DNA of 64,000 nt from Minisyncoccota bacterium (GTDB lineage Bacteria; Patescibacteriota; Minisyncoccia; Phycocordibacterales; UBA9973), in NCBI GenBank assembly GCA_031413715.1, contig JANOFO010000009.1, positions 2,718 to 66,717 on the forward strand, in the 5' to 3' direction. Under the pieces are notes generated by a model. That model ran no database searches. It was not told where the DNA came from and saw only the letters and a program-made list of their open reading frames with translations. Positions 12,249 to 23,128 of the stretch are shown here, piece by piece. How positions within the stretch are numbered: the first letter of the stretch is position 1; each line of letters opens with the position of its first letter. The translations under genes were made by a program, and so were the position numbers.

Positions 12249-13157
12249 ATGGCAAACCGGCACCTTTCACGTTCAATTGTTCTTCAGACACTCTTTGAGT
12301 GGGATTTTGCTGTTGAAAAAGACATTACCCCGAAGGAGATGCTCGACAAGAATATTTTAGAATTCGGCCCTGGGCTTGACGACGCATCTTTCATGTCCGA
12401 GCTCATGCAGGGCGTCGTAAAGAAGCAGGCTATTATCGATGAGATCATAGAAAAAGCTGCGCCTGATTGGCCGATTGACAAAATATCAATCGTTGACCGC
12501 AATATTCTCCGTATGGGGCTCTACGAGCTTCTCTTTGGTGATCGAACCCAAGTTCCACCGAAAGTAGCTATCAATGAAGCTATAGAACTTGCAAAGAGTT
12601 TTGGTGGAGAAAATTCCAGCAAATTTATAAACGGCGTACTAGGAGGAGTATATAAAGAAATCGGTGAACCAGGCAAAGATGATGTTAGCAAAAAGAAGAA
12701 AGCTCTCCAATTCGAGACCGACCCTGCAAAATTTCCAATTGAGAAAAAAGCTGGCGCTGTTATATACGCAGAACATGAAAGCAGTATTTACTTTGCCTTC
12801 GTCCATGACGTTTTTGGTTACTGGACGCTTTCAAAAGGGGGAGTTGAAGAAGGTGAAGATGTCAAAGCGGGAGCAATAAGAGAGATTAAAGAAGAGCTTG
12901 GAATTGAAATAAATATAAAAGAAATCCTTGGTGAGAATGAGTACATTGCTTCTCATCCAGAAAAAGGAAAAATTCGCAAACAAGTTACATTTTTTTTGGC
13001 TGAAACTGTGTATGGTGATCTTGCACTCCACAATAAATCAGGTGGACTCGATGATGCAAAATGGTTCCCGCTTGAAGAAATCGCGAGCCTAAAGATGTAT
13101 GACAATATGATCCCGCTTCTGACGAAAGCGATTGAAATTTTAACAACAAAGAATTAG
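12249..13157 (+). CDS. nusB: NusB antitermination factor fused to a C-terminal Nudix hydrolase domain
   Basis: The N-terminal ~140 aa look NusB-like (RSIVLQTLFEWDF...). The C-terminal domain has a perfect Nudix box GGVEEGEDVKAGAIREIKEELGI (Gx5Ex7REUxEExGU). Confidence 0.8.
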   Translation: MANRHLSRSIVLQTLFEWDFAVEKDITPKEMLDKNILEFGPGLDDASFMSELMQGVVKKQAIIDEIIEKAAPDWPIDKISIVDRNILRMGLYELLFGDRTQVPPKVAINEAIELAKSFGGENSSKFINGVLGGVYKEIGEPGKDDVSKKKKALQFETDPAKFPIEKKAGAVIYAEHESSIYFAFVHDVFGYWTLSKGGVEEGEDVKAGAIREIKEELGIEINIKEILGENEYIASHPEKGKIRKQVTFFLAETVYGDLALHNKSGGLDDAKWFPLEEIASLKMYDNMIPLLTKAIEILTTKN

Positions 13158-13923: not shown

Positions 13924-13944
13924 GCCACAAGTCCGACTTGTGGC
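13924..13944. repeat. Palindromic element GCCACAAGTCCGACTTGTGGC (copy 1 of 2)
   Basis: Perfect 8-bp arms. The same element with similar flanks occurs in inverted orientation at 59388..59408. Confidence 0.8.
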
Positions 13945-13955
13945 TCAGTATTATT

Positions 13956-16217
13956 ATGACACTAAAATCTATAGAACTCTCCGGATTTAAATCATTTGGC
14001 AAGAAAAGCCTAGTCTCATTTACGACTCCTATTACCGCTATTGTCGGGCCAAATGGTTCCGGCAAGTCAAATATTGTTGAAGCAATCCGCTTCGTGCTCG
14101 GTGAACAATCTATGAAATCGCTCCGTGGTAAAGGAGGAGTCGATCTTATCTTCAAAGGCTCGAAAGCTATGTCGTCGGCGAACCGTGCCTTGGTGACCAT
14201 TACATTTGATAACAGCAAGAAGATTTTCTCATTTTCAAATAGCGGTCTCGGTGTCTCGCTCGACTATGATGAGATCACGATTTCTCGTGAAGTATTTTCT
14301 GATGGGGCAAACACATATAGTATCAACTCAAGCGAAGTACGACTCAAAGATGTGATAGATCTGCTTTCGTCGGTCAATATAGGTAGTTCAGGACACCATA
14401 TCATATCGCAGGGCGAATCCGATCGTGTGCTAAATGCTTCCAATAAAGACCGTCGGGCTATGATCGAAGACGCGCTCGGGCTTAAAATTTATCAATATCG
14501 TATACGAGAAGCAGAACGCAAACTTGATAAAACTATCCTCAATGTCAAAGAAGTGCAGGCCTCTCGTCGCGAGATCGCCCCGCATTTGGCATTCCTCAAA
14601 AAGCAGGTACAGATAGTAGAGAAAGCTCACGCAATGCGCGAAGAGTTAAGAGATTTATACAAAACTTATTTAGGCGCTGAATCGACATATATACATAAAG
14701 AGACAGAAAGACTTCGTGGTCTTAAGCATACACTTGATAAAGATATGCAATCGTTCGAAGAAGGCATCCATGGCTTACAGAAAGATAAAAATGAAATAGC
14801 AGGTGAAAGTGTGCATGGAAACGAAATAAAAGAACTTGAAACCAAGCTCTCCTTAGTACGGAAAGAAAAAGATGAACTTACTCGTAAGCTCGGCCGAATC
14901 GAAGGGATACTCGAGAGTTTAGAAAGAGAACTTAATCGAGCCCAAGATGTGAATGAAAAAGTAATTCCTGAGAAAGAATGGAGGGGACTAATTGCTGATT
15001 TGAAGGAAAAAATCAGCGAAGCTCTCAGGTCTCAAGATTTGCCAGAAGTCGCTCAAATCCTCAGGGCAATAAAGGAGCGTATCGATACATTAGATACAGA
15101 AAATGCGGGACAGCCGAAGGAAACCGATCCAAAGATTCACAAAGAATATGAAGAAATGAAAACTGTCCGCAGTGAGATTGTATCTAATGTAGAAGAATTA
15201 GAGAGACAAGAACAATCAGTCTTGGCAGAGATTACATCACTCCGAGAGAAAGAACACGATAGAGATCTGCAGATTCGCGACAGCGAGCGAGTTTTATATG
15301 AAGCTCTTGGTAAAAAGAGCGAAGTTACCGCAAGCTTACAAGCAGTGCATTTTGAAGAAGAAAAACTTGCTCTCATAAAAAATGCTTTTTCCATGGAAGT
15401 TGAAGAAGCAAGCGTACTTATAGGTCCTGAAATAGGAAGATATGTGGAAGAAACGGCAGCTAGTGATGTCCTACGATCTTCACAAGAAGAACTAAGAAAG
15501 AAAATTGAGCGCATCAAGATCAAGCTTGAAGATGTCGGTTCTGGTGGCGGAGCTGATGTGCTTAAAGAATATAAAGATACAGAAGAGCGTGATCTCTTCC
15601 TTGGCAAAGAAATAAGCGACTTACACAAAGGTGTCGAAGATTGTCGATCGCTCATACAAGACTTGAAAGAAACGCTTGATTCGGAATTCAAGCGTGGAGT
15701 TGAGAAAATAAACAAGCAGTTCCATGACTTTTTTGTCCTCATGTTCGGAGGAGGTTCTGCATTCTTGTCAGTGGTGATGGAACACAAAAAGGGAAGAAGG
15801 GGAGCAAATGAAGATGACGAGGAGATGGAAGAAGAAAAAGATGAAGATGAACTTGGTTTTGAGCGGGGAATAGAGATAAATGTATCTCTTCCGCACAAAA
15901 AAGTAAAAGACTTGCACATGCTATCTGGCGGTGAACGATCGCTTGCATCTATCGCGCTCCTCTTTGCTATTTCGCAAGTGAATCCTCCGCCATTCTTAGT
16001 CCTCGATGAGACCGATGCTGCGCTTGATGAAGCGAACTCTCGTAAGTATGGAAATATGCTCGAAAACCTTTCTAAATACTCGCAACTCATTGTCGTTACC
16101 CACAATCGTGAGACTATGTCTCGCGCAAATGTGCTCTATGGGGTCACAATGGACTCATCCGGTGCTTCCAAGCTTCTCTCCATTCACCTCGAAGACGCAA
16201 GTATATATGCAAAATAG
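13956..16217 (+). CDS. smc: SMC-family chromosome-segregation ATPase (short form, ~754 aa)
   Basis: N-terminal MTLKSIELSGFKSF...GPNGSGKSN Walker A. Long coiled coils. C-terminal signature LSGGERSLASIALLFAI and Walker B VLDETDAALD. Acidic insert EDDEEMEEEKDEDE. Start chosen at the Met that matches the SMC N-terminus. Confidence 0.8.
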   Translation: MTLKSIELSGFKSFGKKSLVSFTTPITAIVGPNGSGKSNIVEAIRFVLGEQSMKSLRGKGGVDLIFKGSKAMSSANRALVTITFDNSKKIFSFSNSGLGVSLDYDEITISREVFSDGANTYSINSSEVRLKDVIDLLSSVNIGSSGHHIISQGESDRVLNASNKDRRAMIEDALGLKIYQYRIREAERKLDKTILNVKEVQASRREIAPHLAFLKKQVQIVEKAHAMREELRDLYKTYLGAESTYIHKETERLRGLKHTLDKDMQSFEEGIHGLQKDKNEIAGESVHGNEIKELETKLSLVRKEKDELTRKLGRIEGILESLERELNRAQDVNEKVIPEKEWRGLIADLKEKISEALRSQDLPEVAQILRAIKERIDTLDTENAGQPKETDPKIHKEYEEMKTVRSEIVSNVEELERQEQSVLAEITSLREKEHDRDLQIRDSERVLYEALGKKSEVTASLQAVHFEEEKLALIKNAFSMEVEEASVLIGPEIGRYVEETAASDVLRSSQEELRKKIERIKIKLEDVGSGGGADVLKEYKDTEERDLFLGKEISDLHKGVEDCRSLIQDLKETLDSEFKRGVEKINKQFHDFFVLMFGGGSAFLSVVMEHKKGRRGANEDDEEMEEEKDEDELGFERGIEINVSLPHKKVKDLHMLSGGERSLASIALLFAISQVNPPPFLVLDETDAALDEANSRKYGNMLENLSKYSQLIVVTHNRETMSRANVLYGVTMDSSGASKLLSIHLEDASIYAK

Positions 16218-16241
16218 CCTTTAATATAAAGACATTATAAA

Positions 16242-16288
16242 ACACCCTCTGTCAATAGTCCTATTGACAGAGGGTGTTTTATTTGCTA
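16242..16288 (+). terminator. Rho-independent terminator after smc (18-bp perfect stem)
   Basis: AACACCCTCTGTCAATAG-tc-CTATTGACAGAGGGTGTT followed by TTTATTT. Confidence 0.8.
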
Positions 16289-16422
16289 TAATATGAAGAA
16301 TAGTGCGTTCTTTGACAATGACGGGTTAAATATTGAGGAGCAAAATCTTTTTTTGTAGTGCACGCAATGTGCATTCGAAGAAAGGTTAGCTTCTTAATTT
16401 TTTTAACTTTAAAAACAGTAAA

Positions 16423-17550
16423 ATGTTAAACAAAAAAGCAAAGAGAGCCGTAACGGCTCCAACGACACCAACCATTCCTTTAAAAAGGAGCCAGGTTGAA
16501 GAAGTTTTTTCGGGACAAAAGAAGGCGATTAATGATAATATCTACCTTCACCTGAAAGAAGTTGATGAGCTCAAAAAACCATTACCGGCAATGAGCCAAG
16601 AACTTTACAAAACCAGAGAGTATTCATTGAAAAGAGGGTACAAATTTATCCTTACAATAATAGTCTTACTGGTTGTTTCAGGATTAGAGATTCCATTGAA
16701 TGCAACCGGGCTTGAAATGCTTGGAAGACCGCAGACCACAACCACTATTATGGCTTTGGGATTAGCTTGCGCATTAGGCTTACTGGCCGAAGGTGCAGGG
16801 TTTTCTTTCAGAAGAGCCGTAGCAAGGGGAAGTTTTCTGGGAGTCATAGGTGCATTATTCTGCGCAGGTGTAGCCCTCACTATTATTTACTGGCTTTCAG
16901 AGTTTCGTGTAGACTACTTTATAAGGATGAAGTATAAGAAGGAAGATATCAGTCTCACGGGACAAGTTGTATTTTCCATTGCTGTCTGGTGTGCAGGCGT
17001 TATTGGAGTTTATTTTTTAACCAGCGGGGTTAAAAATCTCCACATGGAGAAAGTTTTTAACAGTAAACGTAAATCGATCAGGCAACTGCATAAAAAAATT
17101 GATTTACTGAAAGCTGAGAAAAACATTCTTAAAGATCAGCACCCAAAAAATTTGGTGGCCGCTGAGGCCTATGAAGCCAACATTCAGCATGAAAAACAAA
17201 GAGCCGAGAATTTGAAAAATGAATTGGCTGCGCTGACAATTAAACAAAATGAAGATAATCTAAAGCAAAAATCGGAAGAAGAAAAAGTTAGAACCGGATT
17301 GCAAAAAGATGCATTTTATGGCAAATATAAGGCTTTACTGGCTATAAAAGGCCGGGTAGAGAAAATTGCAGCCGAAAATGAAGACAAAAGTGAGTTAAGC
17401 GTTAATGAAGATTACGTATCATCTATGTCTTCAGCCGAAACCCTCGTTGAAGAAATGAAAGAGTTAGTCTCAGATGAAATCCCTGAAACAGGGAAAGATT
17501 TCCAGAACGCTAAAACTATTCTTAACGATTTAAAAAACCTGGCAGCATGA
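16423..17550 (+). CDS. Hypothetical membrane protein (about 4 TM helices) with long C-terminal coiled coil
   Basis: 375-aa ORF. Hydrophobic helices at residues ~70-200, then a K/E-rich heptad-like region. No motif recognised. Confidence 0.6.
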   Translation: MLNKKAKRAVTAPTTPTIPLKRSQVEEVFSGQKKAINDNIYLHLKEVDELKKPLPAMSQELYKTREYSLKRGYKFILTIIVLLVVSGLEIPLNATGLEMLGRPQTTTTIMALGLACALGLLAEGAGFSFRRAVARGSFLGVIGALFCAGVALTIIYWLSEFRVDYFIRMKYKKEDISLTGQVVFSIAVWCAGVIGVYFLTSGVKNLHMEKVFNSKRKSIRQLHKKIDLLKAEKNILKDQHPKNLVAAEAYEANIQHEKQRAENLKNELAALTIKQNEDNLKQKSEEEKVRTGLQKDAFYGKYKALLAIKGRVEKIAAENEDKSELSVNEDYVSSMSSAETLVEEMKELVSDEIPETGKDFQNAKTILNDLKNLAA

Positions 17551-18251
17551 AAAGTTCAATCCTCACAGTAATGATAGCTGTATCAGCTATCTTACTCTCT
17601 TGTGGCGCAAAAACACCCAAGAAAAAAAACGATGTTTATATACTGGTAGATAACACCGAAAAAGTGGCGTACAAAAATGATATGGTAGCAACTCAGGCTA
17701 TTTTAGGCCTGGTTGGCAACCGTGGCACCGTCACTTTTAAGGCCCTGACAGGGGTCTCAATAAATGCTGAGGCAGAAGCTTCAGTATTGGTGGATGGATC
17801 AACAAGTGTTCTGAGACAGGATCAAATTGATCCATTTGTTGAAAAATTGGACTCACTAAAGAAGAAGTATTTTGGTGTAATAACTGAATATAAAACTTCA
17901 AGCTTATGGGTTCCAATTTGCCAGGCTATAAAAAAGCTGAATAATTCAATATTGTCTGATCCAAATTCGGCCGGTACAAAGACGCTGATAATAATGTCAG
18001 ACATGTTGGAAAATTCGGAGTATGGAAATTTTTACAAAGATATTCCATACGAAACGGTAAAAAAAGGTTTAGAAGTATCAGGAGATACTTTGCCGAAAAA
18101 TTGTAAAGTAAAAGTCGTTGTTGTGTTCAATCCTGAACAAAGTATAGAAAAAGAGAAGAAGCATAAGAAAGCCATGAAATACTGGCACAAATTCTTCGAA
18201 GAGTCAGGAATTGAATATGAAGTAACAGCCAAAATGGGCGAAAAACTGTAA
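17547..18251 (+). CDS. Hypothetical lipoprotein
   Basis: 234 aa. Signal peptide with lipobox-like LLSCG. 4-nt overlap with the upstream gene. Confidence 0.55.
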   Translation: MKSSILTVMIAVSAILLSCGAKTPKKKNDVYILVDNTEKVAYKNDMVATQAILGLVGNRGTVTFKALTGVSINAEAEASVLVDGSTSVLRQDQIDPFVEKLDSLKKKYFGVITEYKTSSLWVPICQAIKKLNNSILSDPNSAGTKTLIIMSDMLENSEYGNFYKDIPYETVKKGLEVSGDTLPKNCKVKVVVVFNPEQSIEKEKKHKKAMKYWHKFFEESGIEYEVTAKMGEKL

Positions 18252-18254
18252 TGT

Positions 18255-18755
18255 ATGCCAAACCAAGCAGGCGAAGCGCTAGGACAGTTAAAAGGCTACA
18301 TTCCACAGCTCGTATTGGTTAAAACCATGCTTCAGCAGATGGTGAAAAGATTTTCTCCAATTAGTTACTATAAAAAGTTTATTTATGGCAAAAATCCACC
18401 GAGCCTAATTCCCATTGAGGCGATTGAAGAGTTCTGGACTGGTTTAAGTTCTGCCCAAAAGTCCCTACTTGAATTTAGGAGTTTATTTAATGAAAATGAT
18501 CTTCCTGAAAACATTAGGCCAACTTTTGTGAGTATTTCTGTAGACCTCTTACAAAACAAGTTCGATCTCGATAACGAAGTTGTGAAGATTGGAGGTATCG
18601 GCGGTGCATGGTGGAAGGATGTTCCATATGTCTTAAAAAACTGGAATCCGATGAAATATAAGGTAAAAGTAATGTACTCGCAAGAGGCTTACGAAAATAT
18701 ATCTTATTATTTCAAGCTGATAGGCCTTATTGAAGGATTAGAAGCAAAGATGTAA
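18255..18755 (+). CDS. Hypothetical protein
   Basis: 166-aa ORF, 3 nt after the previous stop. No motif recognised. Confidence 0.5.
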   Translation: MPNQAGEALGQLKGYIPQLVLVKTMLQQMVKRFSPISYYKKFIYGKNPPSLIPIEAIEEFWTGLSSAQKSLLEFRSLFNENDLPENIRPTFVSISVDLLQNKFDLDNEVVKIGGIGGAWWKDVPYVLKNWNPMKYKVKVMYSQEAYENISYYFKLIGLIEGLEAKM

Positions 18756-18785
18756 CTTTACTGTTTTACCGTCATTGAAAATAAC

Positions 18786-18830
18786 ACAACAACCCGTGAG
18801 CTTATTTATAAGTCTCCGGGTTGTTTTTCT
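18786..18830 (+). terminator. Rho-independent terminator closing the 16423-18755 module
   Basis: ACAACCCG...CGGGTTGT stem followed by TTTTT. Confidence 0.6.
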
Positions 18831-21034: not shown

Positions 21035-23128
21035 ATGCAAGAACAAAACAAGCCCTCAGATTCTATAGCGAAAAAACTCCAATTACTTAAGAATAAAAAT
21101 ATAGAAGAAAAACAGGCTCCTGTTCGTGCTCGGATTAAGAAAGTTCAAGAAGACTTATATTTTCTTACTGTAATTAAAGGGTCACTCACACTGAAGTCAC
21201 AACAAGTTCCAGGCTCTAATTCCACTGAGAGTGGCATAGGTATGTCAGAATACAAAGATAGCATTAATTCAATGCTTGAAGAAAAAGAGCATGCACTAAA
21301 GGATCTATTTGCATCTCATAAAGACGACCTAGCGCCTCTTGGTGTTCTAAAATGGGAAGACTTACTTACGAATAATGAATTTAAAGATGGAGTAGAAGCC
21401 AATGAATATAACCAAGCTGTCGAAGAAAACGAGATACTTGCCAAAACTGATACCACGCTTCATGAAAGACTAAAAGCACTCGATGTATTGCCACCAAGTA
21501 ATGACTTTTCTTATGCGCTAGCCACTCAAGCAGTTGATAAGAAAATTGGCGAACTAAAGAAAGAACTTGTAGAAAAAACAAAAGAATTCCCAGAAGAAAG
21601 AAAAAAACTTCTTCAAAGTATGATTCTGGAATATAAATTAAAACCCAATGGCCTAAAATTCAATATTAAGGATAATGCTGCAGAAGATTTTGACCTAACT
21701 CAAGATTCAATAGAGAAATCTCAATCAGACTTTTTTGCGTTAGAGCAAAAATACGGAAGCGATTTTGCTTATGAAGTGCTAAGAGAGACATACCGACCAA
21801 ATGTCCACGATCAGATTCGTAAGTATGATAATAATAATGAACATGTTCTCTCACTCTCTGAGCAGATAAAAGCTATTTCTCCTGAGGTAAAGAAGAGAGC
21901 TTTGGAGTTGCTCACTGAATTTCAAAGAGTTCAAGTAGTATGCATAGAAATGCTTAATGTCAAATCTGAAGAATTGAAGGGAAAGGGATTAGTTCTTGAC
22001 CCTGTCAATCTTCCTAATAGTTACGGTCTTACGTATCAAGAAATCATTGGTTTAACCAGCCATCCTGAAATGACCCAAAGTTATGAAAATAGCATTAAAG
22101 ATGAAGGATTTCCTCCAAAGTTTAATCTTAGCGATCTTTCTGCGAGATTAGAAAGTAGAACAGAGGCAGTTAAAAATTTTACTGAACAAATTAAAGGTAT
22201 TGAAGATCAAGAAAGCTTAAAAGCATTTTACGATGCCGGAGATAAAGGTCAAATAGCTAAATTACATTTCAATCTGTTGCACCAAAAAGATTTGTACAAT
22301 TTTAAATTTGTTGAAGAAAACTACGACTCTAGTAACAAATCACCTCTTAAAGAAGTAATTTCTAAGATAAGAGGCTCAAAAACATACGAAGAAGCAGAGA
22401 AATACCTTGCTGAGAAGAGAGCTAAACTCCAAGCTATGGAAGATAATGTTCTTTTGAAAGTTGAATATAAATCAAAAGATCGACATATATATAATAAATT
22501 GGAGGTTCTTTTTGCGAATGTGAGAGAAGCGGAGAATAGAAATAAAATTGCGTACATGACTGATGTTTTAAGGCGGACAGATAAAATAGAAGAACTCAAA
22601 GGTCCGTTTAATATTGCAATTGATGATGTGAAAGAAAGAATGAGACTTTATTCCGATTCTGAACCAGTTACTATTAATGAATGGGTCTTTAAAATCAATT
22701 CTTTCGATAGTTCAATATTTGCTGTGGAGTCGCGAATTCATCAATTAGAAAAAGAATTAAGAGATAAAATAAAAGAAGTAAAGATAAAACAAGAAAAAAA
22801 TCCCGGGAAAGATAGGTGGTTCAGTTTGAGTTCAAAGCATGCAGTATGGGAGTCAGAATTAGAAAAGTTAATGATAGAAGAAAGAGACTTAAGTAACAAT
22901 ATAAAAAATGAAGAAGAAAAGCTACGTGTTTTAAAAAAGGAATCGGTATTGGCGATGCCAAATGGTGATTCTTTTTCAATGTTCTTGGATAGGTTACAGT
23001 TTACTGGAACTAAAGCTGAAGTTTTCCAAGAGTTAGAAAGGATAGTAAAAGAAAAAACAGAACCTAAATTTCCACCAGGTGCTCTTGAACTATATAAACA
23101 ATATCAAGATTTACCTAAAGAGAGCTAA
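21035..23128 (+). CDS. Large hypothetical K/E-rich, coiled-coil-rich cytoplasmic protein
   Basis: 697-aa ORF, no TM or signal peptide, no catalytic motif recognised. Confidence 0.6.
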   Translation: MQEQNKPSDSIAKKLQLLKNKNIEEKQAPVRARIKKVQEDLYFLTVIKGSLTLKSQQVPGSNSTESGIGMSEYKDSINSMLEEKEHALKDLFASHKDDLAPLGVLKWEDLLTNNEFKDGVEANEYNQAVEENEILAKTDTTLHERLKALDVLPPSNDFSYALATQAVDKKIGELKKELVEKTKEFPEERKKLLQSMILEYKLKPNGLKFNIKDNAAEDFDLTQDSIEKSQSDFFALEQKYGSDFAYEVLRETYRPNVHDQIRKYDNNNEHVLSLSEQIKAISPEVKKRALELLTEFQRVQVVCIEMLNVKSEELKGKGLVLDPVNLPNSYGLTYQEIIGLTSHPEMTQSYENSIKDEGFPPKFNLSDLSARLESRTEAVKNFTEQIKGIEDQESLKAFYDAGDKGQIAKLHFNLLHQKDLYNFKFVEENYDSSNKSPLKEVISKIRGSKTYEEAEKYLAEKRAKLQAMEDNVLLKVEYKSKDRHIYNKLEVLFANVREAENRNKIAYMTDVLRRTDKIEELKGPFNIAIDDVKERMRLYSDSEPVTINEWVFKINSFDSSIFAVESRIHQLEKELRDKIKEVKIKQEKNPGKDRWFSLSSKHAVWESELEKLMIEERDLSNNIKNEEEKLRVLKKESVLAMPNGDSFSMFLDRLQFTGTKAEVFQELERIVKEKTEPKFPPGALELYKQYQDLPKES

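What the first reader, a model, noticed from the sequence alone, without database searches (positions are those of the whole stretch)
16242..18830. Self-contained three-gene module of unknown function inserted between convergent smc and rnr
After the strong smc terminator (18-bp perfect stem) come three tightly packed genes (4-TM plus coiled-coil protein, lipoprotein, 166-aa protein; 4-nt and 3-nt spacings) with their own terminator. None has a recognisable domain. A membrane sensor-like protein with a long coiled coil, plus a lipoprotein, wedged between two conserved housekeeping genes is a typical footprint of an acquired accessory or defence module.
Basis: inference. Interest (0 to 1): 0.5.

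Follow-up and report, generated by a model that had tools for sequence, protein, structure and literature searches.

The report
Accessory membrane and vWA-lipoprotein operon
A self-contained three-gene operon sits after smc in a Paceibacteria-type (candidate phyla radiation) genome. It encodes a previously undescribed pairing of a four-helix membrane protein with a surface vWA-like lipoprotein, plus a small cytoplasmic protein, behind a conserved structured RNA leader; it is accessory rather than housekeeping, and its function is still unknown.

Summary
There are three packed genes: A 16423-17550, B 17547-18251 and C 18255-18755. They lie between a perfect 22-nt smc terminator hairpin and a second hairpin shared with convergent rnr. 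None matches Pfam, NCBIfam, PHROGs or PADLOC.

In 37 related species the smc-rnr slot is hypervariable, and only 3 carry this trio. One relative carries it elsewhere. Composition is native and no mobility genes flank it.

New findings:
- B has a vWA-like fold with a variant metal site (D-x-T...S-D-x-x-E).
- A and B are an obligate pair. They are adjacent in more than 20 loci and fused in at least 8 proteins checked. The B family has at least 210 clusters and no curated model.
- Outside this lineage the pair often rides on mobilizable elements, twice within 3-5 kb of defence-type genes.
- C occurs only in the candidate-phyla-radiation (CPR) loci.
- In nine lineages the operon carries its own conserved promoter, a 25-nt box and a 25-bp hairpin with strong covariation. 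The leader has no Rfam match.

Best reading: a regulated envelope-spanning recognition or exclusion device. The architecture is well supported; the function is inferred.

The parts
16237..16282 (.). smc terminator hairpin (perfect 22-nt inverted repeat). Its 3' arm carries the -35 box of the operon promoter.
   Evidence: -32.8 kcal/mol, z=-8.2. It reads as a terminator on both strands.
16264..16292 (+). Operon promoter: TTGACA, 17 nt, then an extended -10 (TGcTATAAT). It matches 12 of 12 consensus positions.
   Evidence: The TATTGAC...TGCTAnnAT pattern is invariant upstream of gene A in six lineages that sit in different genomic contexts.
16307..16331 (+). Conserved leader box GTTCTTTGACAATGACGGGTTAAAT.
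   Evidence: Near-invariant in the alignments. The core TGACAATGAYRG occurs once in the window and, apart from one stray site in L041, only upstream of gene A in module-bearing loci.
16332..16398 (+). Conserved leader hairpin: 25 base pairs with a variable apex.
   Evidence: 92% of cells are paired, against 35-55% when partners are slid. 17 of 25 pairs show compensatory changes, and 0 of 500 shuffles reach this. A covariance model finds it only upstream of gene A, including held-out L139 (98 bits) and L140 (31 bits). There is no Rfam match.
16423..17550 (+). Gene A: a 4-TM membrane protein with cytoplasmic N- and C-terminal helical or coiled-coil arms. Invariant residues are E89, N93, T107, A111, G126, R162 and Y165.
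   Evidence: No Pfam or PDB relative. Homologues precede B or are fused to it.
17547..18251 (+). Gene B: a lipoprotein with a vWA-like fold and a variant MIDAS site (D35-x-T37...S151-D152-x-x-E155).
   Evidence: fold; family and invariant residues; no Pfam or PDB sequence match.
18255..18755 (+). Gene C: a cytoplasmic helical-bundle protein with an FNENDLP motif, found only in the CPR (candidate phyla radiation) loci that carry the module.
18788..18825 (.). Hairpin with flanking U/A runs between the stop codons of C and rnr. It is likely a bidirectional terminator.
   Evidence: z=-3.6 on plus, -4.5 on minus; I2.

Best explanation
What is shown. This is an autonomous, separately transcribed accessory operon. 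A consensus promoter is embedded in the smc terminator. A conserved structured 5' leader follows, then three translationally packed genes and a terminator.

The core is an obligate two-part envelope complex:
- A is a 4-TM protein with both termini in the cytoplasm and variable coiled-coil arms. If the N terminus is inside, most of its invariant polar residues (E89, N93, T107, R162, Y165) fall at the outer face of the membrane.
- B is a lipid-anchored extracytoplasmic domain with a vWA-like fold. Conserved D-x-T and S-D-x-x-E residues sit at the topological positions of a MIDAS metal site.
- C is a lineage-specific cytoplasmic helical bundle.

What is inferred. B captures an external ligand through its metal site, or docks onto A's outer-face acidic residues. 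A couples this event across the membrane to its cytoplasmic coiled coils, where C binds. The complex would act as a surface recognition or exclusion device against invading elements or cells. The leader keeps expression under control.

In this lineage the cassette is an old but dispensable and fast-evolving occupant of a hypervariable envelope-protein slot next to smc.
For: Operon anatomy.

A-B partnership:
- A is immediately upstream of B in the window, L001, L003, L055, L091, L093, L094, L097, L098, L100, L108, L116, L122, L124, L125, L127, L133, L137, L139, L140 and L142.
- At least 15 family hits of 507-755 aa carry the B domain at their C terminus. In eight that were checked, the N-terminal part matches the A profile (seven by hmmsearch, E 1e-26 to 1e-40; P0038 by its motifs); a ninth, P0072, does not match significantly (E 0.23) but has the same 4+1 TM layout.
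- Those fusions have a fifth TM helix before the B domain and keep the Cys at the position of B's lipobox. This fixes the topology: A's C terminus is inside and B is outside.

B fold:
- The AlphaFold2 strand and helix order matches vWA.
- The top Foldseek hits are vWA domains, probability up to 0.96.
- Distant family members carry DMSGST and reach VWA_2 at E=3e-5.
- D35 is invariant, and T37, S151, D152, E155 and Y163 are at least 90% conserved in 71 sequences. They lie at the ends of strands beta1 and beta4.

Accessory and fast-evolving: 3 of 37 relatives carry it. It is scattered on the SMC tree. Module proteins are 26-43% identical where SMC is 61-73% identical.

Conflict-type association of distant A-B pairs: they lie beside relaxase, coupling protein, NikA, integrase or Rep3 genes. 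Two of them lie within 3-5 kb of a CBASS-type patatin effector and of PDC-S06.

Regulated leader.
Against: - There is no functional evidence of any kind. A, B and C match no curated family, including all PADLOC models.
- The B model has low confidence (pLDDT 59). In the window protein the canonical DxSxS motif is replaced by D-N-T-E-K.
- Topology and coiled coils are inferred from sequence only. No structure was predicted for A.
- In the CPR genomes the flanks are housekeeping genes, and no phage or plasmid copy was found.
- The association with mobile elements and defence genes rests on about ten sampled contexts of distant relatives (B about 20-30% identical). It may reflect ordinary cargo.
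- C and the leader are absent from those distant systems, so the function could differ.
Confidence: 0.4

Rival explanations
1. It is a surface adhesion or host-attachment complex. Paceibacteria are thought to be episymbionts. B would be a metal-dependent adhesin held at the surface by A, with no role in conflict.
For: vWA domains are classic adhesion modules; tip pilins and integrin I-domains are among the fold matches. The plus-strand slot after smc holds other signal-peptide or lipoprotein genes in relatives, which fits a variable surface-protein locus. The fast divergence suits surface proteins.
Against: The same A-B core is carried by mobilizable elements and plasmids in non-CPR bacteria with different lifestyles. 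This reading does not explain the cytoplasmic coiled coils or C. The domain is small and close to the membrane, so it cannot reach far.
Confidence: 0.22
2. It is an ion channel or transporter with an auxiliary extracellular vWA subunit. A's conserved membrane Glu, Asn and Thr residues would line a conduction path that B gates, by analogy with the lipid-anchored alpha2-delta vWA subunit of calcium channels.
For: There are invariant polar residues in TM1 and TM2. An alpha2-delta vWA domain appears among the fold matches (rank 22).
Against: The conserved residues cluster at the outer face rather than along the helices. No transporter or channel family matches significantly. The analogy comes from memory, not from a test.
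Confidence: 0.1
3. It is a lineage-wide housekeeping envelope component that merely looks inserted.
For: It lies next to smc in several divergent lineages (window, L030, L039, L055, L091, L139). Its composition is native.
Against: It is absent from 34 of 37 related species at this site, including the nearest SMC relatives and the 90%-identical L035. The leader model finds no relocated copy within the fetched loci of about 20 kb.
Confidence: 0.06
4. It was recently acquired by horizontal transfer as a mobile island.
For: Its distribution is patchy. B of L055 is closer to B of L091 (51%) than to B of L039 (43%), although the SMC proteins say the opposite. L001 has the trio at another site.
Against: GC and GC3 are native. 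There are no repeats or mobility genes and no matches in viral, phage or plasmid collections. The nearest homologue is only 60-68% identical.
Confidence: 0.12

Closest known systems
von Willebrand factor A (vWA) / integrin I-domain superfamily (for B)
   Different: B does not reach any Pfam VWA threshold. Its motif is D-x-T-[ED]-x rather than DxSxS. It is a small stand-alone lipoprotein of about 210 aa, tied to a dedicated 4-TM partner.
Zorya ZorAB and other MotAB/ExbBD-type membrane complexes (an analogy only, recalled from memory)
   Same: A polytopic membrane protein with a long cytoplasmic coiled-coil tail, an extracytoplasmic partner and one or more cytoplasmic proteins, all in one accessory operon.
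   Different: No ZorA, ZorB or other PADLOC model matches. B has no conserved TM Asp and is lipid-anchored. The 1:1 fusions argue against 5:2 stoichiometry. There is no peptidoglycan-binding domain.
Entry or surface exclusion pairs of conjugative elements (for example an inner-membrane protein plus a lipoprotein such as TraS/TraT; recalled from memory)
   Same: A membrane protein plus a lipoprotein, encoded next to relaxase and coupling-protein genes in distant members.
   Different: No sequence relationship was tested or seen. The CPR copies are not on conjugative elements. Those systems are not known to contain a vWA fold.
vWA-containing bacterial operons: BatA-E/MoxR and the TerY-kinase-phosphatase triad
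   Same: A vWA-type protein encoded with membrane or signalling partners. A Ser/Thr kinase gene lies next to the module in L001 and next to a distant B-like group.
   Different: There is no MoxR ATPase, PP2C or BatA domain. The kinase-bearing neighbour in L001 shares only its non-kinase N-terminal part with the neighbours in L091, L100 and L095, and L091's copy has no Pfam hit. The window has none of these.

Membership tests
vWA domain superfamily (B) | Rossmann-like alpha/beta fold with the vWA strand order | tested here: met
vWA domain superfamily (B) | Canonical MIDAS motif DxSxS...T...D | tested here: inconclusive
   The window protein has D35-N-T37-E-K and S151-D152-M-L-E155. D35 is invariant and T37, S151, D152 and E155 are at least 90% conserved. 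Distant members have the canonical DMSGST. Metal binding was not tested.
vWA domain superfamily (B) | Reaches the gathering score of a Pfam VWA model | tested here: not met
   B has no hit, and 0 of 71 family members hit a VWA model. The best distant relative scores 24.9 bits against a cutoff of 27.
Bacterial lipoprotein (B) | N-terminal signal peptide ending in a lipobox with an invariant Cys | tested here: met
   The N terminus reads MKSSILTVMIAVSAILLSC19G. Cys19 is at least 90% conserved. The Cys is kept after the fifth TM helix in 9 of 9 fusion proteins read.
Known anti-phage defence systems (PADLOC-DB v2, including Zorya) | At least one protein matching a system model | tested here: not met
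   No hit at E<=1 for A, B or C, and none for the fusion P0045.
Integrated mobile element or genomic island | Integrase or transposase, flanking repeats, deviant composition | tested here: not met
   The neighbours are thrS, rpmF, nusB, rnc, smc and rnr. There are no flanking direct repeats. GC is 0.37-0.39 against 0.406 +/- 0.034 for the window's genes.
Rfam RNA families (leader) | Match to a curated covariance model | tested here: not met
   Only chance-level miRNA-type hits to the terminator hairpin, and nothing on the leader.
TerY-type vWA / Ser-Thr kinase / PP2C triad | Adjacent kinase and PP2C phosphatase genes | tested here: not met
   There are none in the 64-kb window (tblastn). Of the DUF5663-linked neighbours only L001's has a recorded kinase domain; L091's copy has no Pfam hit.

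The most novel reading that the evidence does not exclude
The A-B pair (plus C in CPR bacteria) is a new class of envelope-embedded conflict system. A surface vWA-like sensor would be coupled through a dedicated 4-TM coiled-coil protein to block phage, conjugative or predatory entry. It would be spread by mobilizable elements. In Paceibacteria it would be controlled by a previously undescribed structured RNA leader.
Probability: 0.2. Interest if true: 0.75.

Novelty: new variant of a known kind. Interest (0 to 1): 0.5.

Why it matters
- The work links three orphan ORFs to a widespread but unannotated two-component membrane system: at least 210 clusters at 50% identity, with gene fusions that prove the partnership.
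- It gives a fold, a topology and candidate functional residues that can be mutated.
- It shows that the family frequently travels on mobilizable elements.
- It uncovers a covarying RNA leader in bacteria of the candidate phyla radiation (CPR), where almost no cis-regulatory RNAs are known.
- It identifies the smc-rnr junction as a strain-variable envelope-protein slot in Paceibacteria. That slot is a practical place to look for the genes that set host or niche specificity in these uncultured bacteria.

Tried and rejected
- **Leader peptide (uORF).** The conserved box reads F-(F/S)-D-N-D-G in one frame. In-frame start codons downstream of the -10 are missing in L055, L030, L100 and L140, and stop positions range from 10 codons to none. 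I rejected this idea; the constraint is at the nucleotide level.
- **Insertion scars.** No flanking direct repeats were found.
- **Compositional anomaly.** None for the module.
- **Phage, plasmid and viral origin.** No matches.
- **Sequence searches of PDB.** The A and B profiles returned only coiled-coil noise.
- **Kinase link.** The DUF5663 plus large-protein pair next to the module in L001, L091, L100 and L095 is absent from the window. Only L001's copy has a recorded kinase domain. I treated this as synteny, not as part of the system.
- **Word-indexed protein search.** It missed the 35%-identical A and B homologues in L003, so the near-orphan counts understate the family.
- **AFDB50 fold library.** It was unavailable.
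- **Literature.** Searches found no description of this pairing or of DUF5663.
Full report
**The observation.** The region contains three plus-strand ORFs: A (16423-17550, 375 aa), B (17547-18251, 234 aa) and C (18255-18755, 166 aa). A and B share an ATGA overlap, and B and C are 3 nt apart. Upstream lies a 759-aa SMC (SMC_N, E=2e-63). Downstream and convergent lies RNase R (RNB, E=2e-112).

A perfect 22-nt inverted repeat follows smc at 16237-16282. Its energy is -32.8 kcal/mol with z=-8.2. Its 3' arm contains TTGACA, which together with TGcTATAAT 17 nt further on gives a 12/12 promoter match. A second hairpin at 18788-18825 has flanking U and A runs. It folds on both strands and lies between the stop codons of C and rnr. 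None of the three proteins matches Pfam, NCBIfam, PHROGs or PADLOC below E=0.01. The description is correct.

**Lineage and the junction.** The flanking genes and their best relatives place the window in a Paceibacteria / Nomurabacteria-type Patescibacteria lineage (record titles). I fetched the smc neighbourhood from 41 related species representatives whose SMC is 41-72% identical. The backbone is conserved: thrS, rpmF, nusB-NUDIX, rnc, smc, then rnr, rpsP, a KH-domain gene and trmD.

The interval between smc and rnr, however, is hypervariable:
- It is empty in L032, L043 and L054.
- It usually holds one or two minus-strand deacetylase-like genes (35 genes in one family).
- On the plus strand it holds an assortment of orphan genes, many with signal peptides.

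The A-B-C trio occurs there only in L039 (the same contig as L003), in L055 and, cut by the contig end, in L030. That is 3 of 37 informative loci. The species with the most similar SMC (70-72% identity) lack it. L035 has an SMC 90% identical to that of L039 but carries an unrelated 370-aa secreted protein instead. The two DNA sequences diverge exactly after the smc stop codon.

A closer relative of the module (60-68% identity; L001, on an 840-kb contig) carries the trio between a DUF5663 gene and ftsH. In the deep-branching L091 and in L139 the trio is convergent with smc. On an SMC tree the carriers are scattered. Module proteins are 26-43% identical between lineages whose SMC proteins are 61-73% identical. 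B of L055 is closer to B of L091 than to B of L039, the reverse of the SMC relationships.

The module's GC (0.37-0.39) and GC3 (0.35-0.39) lie within the range of the window's genes. There are no flanking repeats and no mobility genes. The cassette is therefore accessory, fast-evolving and repeatedly lost or exchanged, but it shows no sign of recent import.

**Protein B.** An exhaustive profile search of 1.84 billion representatives found 210 clusters at E<=1e-3, 35 of them at E<=1e-10. Most are lipoproteins of 225-255 aa. None of 71 members hits a relevant Pfam family, and the profile finds no PDB sequence. D35 is invariant. Cys19, T37, S151, D152, E155 and Y163 are at least 90% conserved.

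**Protein A and the A-B partnership.** At least 15 hits of the B profile are proteins of 507-755 aa with the B domain at their C terminus. In seven of these the N-terminal part matches an A profile at E 1e-26 to 1e-40. An eighth, P0038, carries the same TM-region motifs on reading, and a ninth, P0072, does not match significantly but shows the same layout of four TM helices plus one. These fusions contain the A-type four-helix membrane block, a coiled coil, a fifth hydrophobic helix and then the B domain. All nine fusions read keep a Cys at the lipobox position.

As separate genes, an A homologue lies immediately upstream of B in more than 20 distinct loci. This is Rosetta-stone evidence for a physical pair. 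It also fixes the topology: A's C-terminal coiled coil is cytoplasmic and B is outside. I infer that the retained internal lipobox lets the fusions be cleaved and lipidated.

Across 16 divergent A sequences the invariant residues are E89 and N93 (the E-x-P-x-N motif in TM1), T107, A111, G126, R162 and Y165. If the lysine-rich N terminus is inside, all but G126 fall at the outer face, where B sits. The cytoplasmic arms vary greatly in length and sequence. A has no Pfam or PDB relative.

**Protein C.** C has no signal peptide. It occurs only in CPR (candidate phyla radiation) loci that carry the module: the window, L001, L003, L055, L091, L092, L139 and, weakly, L140. Its model (pLDDT 68) is a helical bundle with only generic fold matches. 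Its role as a cytoplasmic partner of A's coiled coil is inferred from gene order alone.

**Context of distant members.**
- Three fusions (P0045, P0073, P0116) and two gene pairs (P0066, P0041) lie beside relaxase, type IV coupling protein, NikA/MobC, integrase or Rep3 genes. They are therefore cargo of integrative mobilizable elements or plasmids, and one of these loci carries a Bacteroidota-type marker.
- P0036 is next to an integrase.
- P0049 lies about 5 kb from a CBASS-type patatin effector (E=4e-68), and the P0066 locus has a PDC-S06 candidate defence gene about 3 kb away (E=2e-172).

These are distant relatives and the sample is small. Even so, it is the only evidence bearing on function, and it points towards conflict or exclusion rather than core physiology.

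**A conserved promoter and RNA leader.** I aligned the DNA upstream of gene A from six lineages whose A proteins are only 22-38% identical and which sit in different genomic contexts. Three features are conserved:
- an invariant promoter, TATTGAC-17 nt-TGCTAnnAT;
- a near-invariant 25-nt box, GTTCTTTGACAATGACGGGTTTAAT (window 16307-16331);
- a hairpin of about 25 bp with a variable apex (16332-16398).

In the hairpin 92% of cells are paired, against 35-55% when the partners are slid. Seventeen of 25 pairs show compensatory changes, and no shuffle out of 500 reaches the observed values. A covariance model built from seven sequences finds the element only upstream of gene A in about 1.1 Mb of related DNA. 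The hits include two loci not used for training: L139 (98 bits, E=1e-16) and L140 (31 bits, E=2e-3, with a helix of entirely different sequence). Rfam has no match. A leader-peptide explanation was examined and rejected. Whether the box acts as DNA (an operator) or as RNA, and what the hairpin senses, is unknown.

**Verdict.** The finding is real. It is neither a housekeeping cluster nor a demonstrable defence island. It is a regulated accessory operon that encodes a previously undescribed envelope complex built around a vWA-like lipoprotein and a dedicated 4-TM coiled-coil partner. The family has no curated model, and the four literature searches run here found no description of it. The architecture and the partnership are well supported. 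The proposed recognition or exclusion function is an inference from fold, topology and the company that distant relatives keep.

Noticed in passing
window 21035-23128 (+): A 697-aa orphan ORF lies between rnr and rpsP. Its GC is 0.338 and its GC3 is 0.251, against about 0.41 and 0.38 for neighbouring genes. In related genomes rnr is followed directly by rpsP. It has no significant family hits. It looks more like a recent insertion than the module under study.
   Followed up: partly
window 16237-16292: The 3' arm of the smc terminator hairpin contains the -35 hexamer of the downstream operon's promoter. Terminator and promoter therefore physically overlap.
   Followed up: partly
window 13938-16217; L011-L055: The SMC of this lineage is only about 750-760 aa, against roughly 1,200 aa in typical bacteria (recalled from memory). 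This implies much shorter coiled-coil arms. The size is conserved across all relatives fetched.
   Followed up: no
window 12249-13157: A NusB-NUDIX fusion protein of 302 aa is conserved in the same position in all relatives.
   Followed up: no
L024 12040-13300: The last 200 nt or so of smc are repeated at about 90% identity roughly 1 kb downstream, flanking extra ORFs. A run of N sits next to the repeat, so this may be a scaffolding artefact of strain-level variation at the junction rather than a true duplication.
   Followed up: partly
L099-L120 (soil metagenome loci): A distant B-like protein of 272 aa, with an N-terminal TM helix instead of a lipobox, sits in a conserved four-gene set. The other three are a 4-TM protein of 505-669 aa, a 4-TM protein of about 570 aa and a 219-aa protein, none with a Pfam hit. 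A Ser/Thr kinase gene is transcribed divergently alongside. This may be a larger sister system.
   Followed up: partly
L001 3036-8562; L091 1027-4366; L100 2803-6561; L095 705-3569: A DUF5663 gene plus a very large protein lies next to the A-B-C trio in four lineages. The large protein is 1,000-1,737 aa, and a kinase domain is recorded only for L001's copy. This could be shared synteny or a functional link; the pair is absent from the window.
   Followed up: partly
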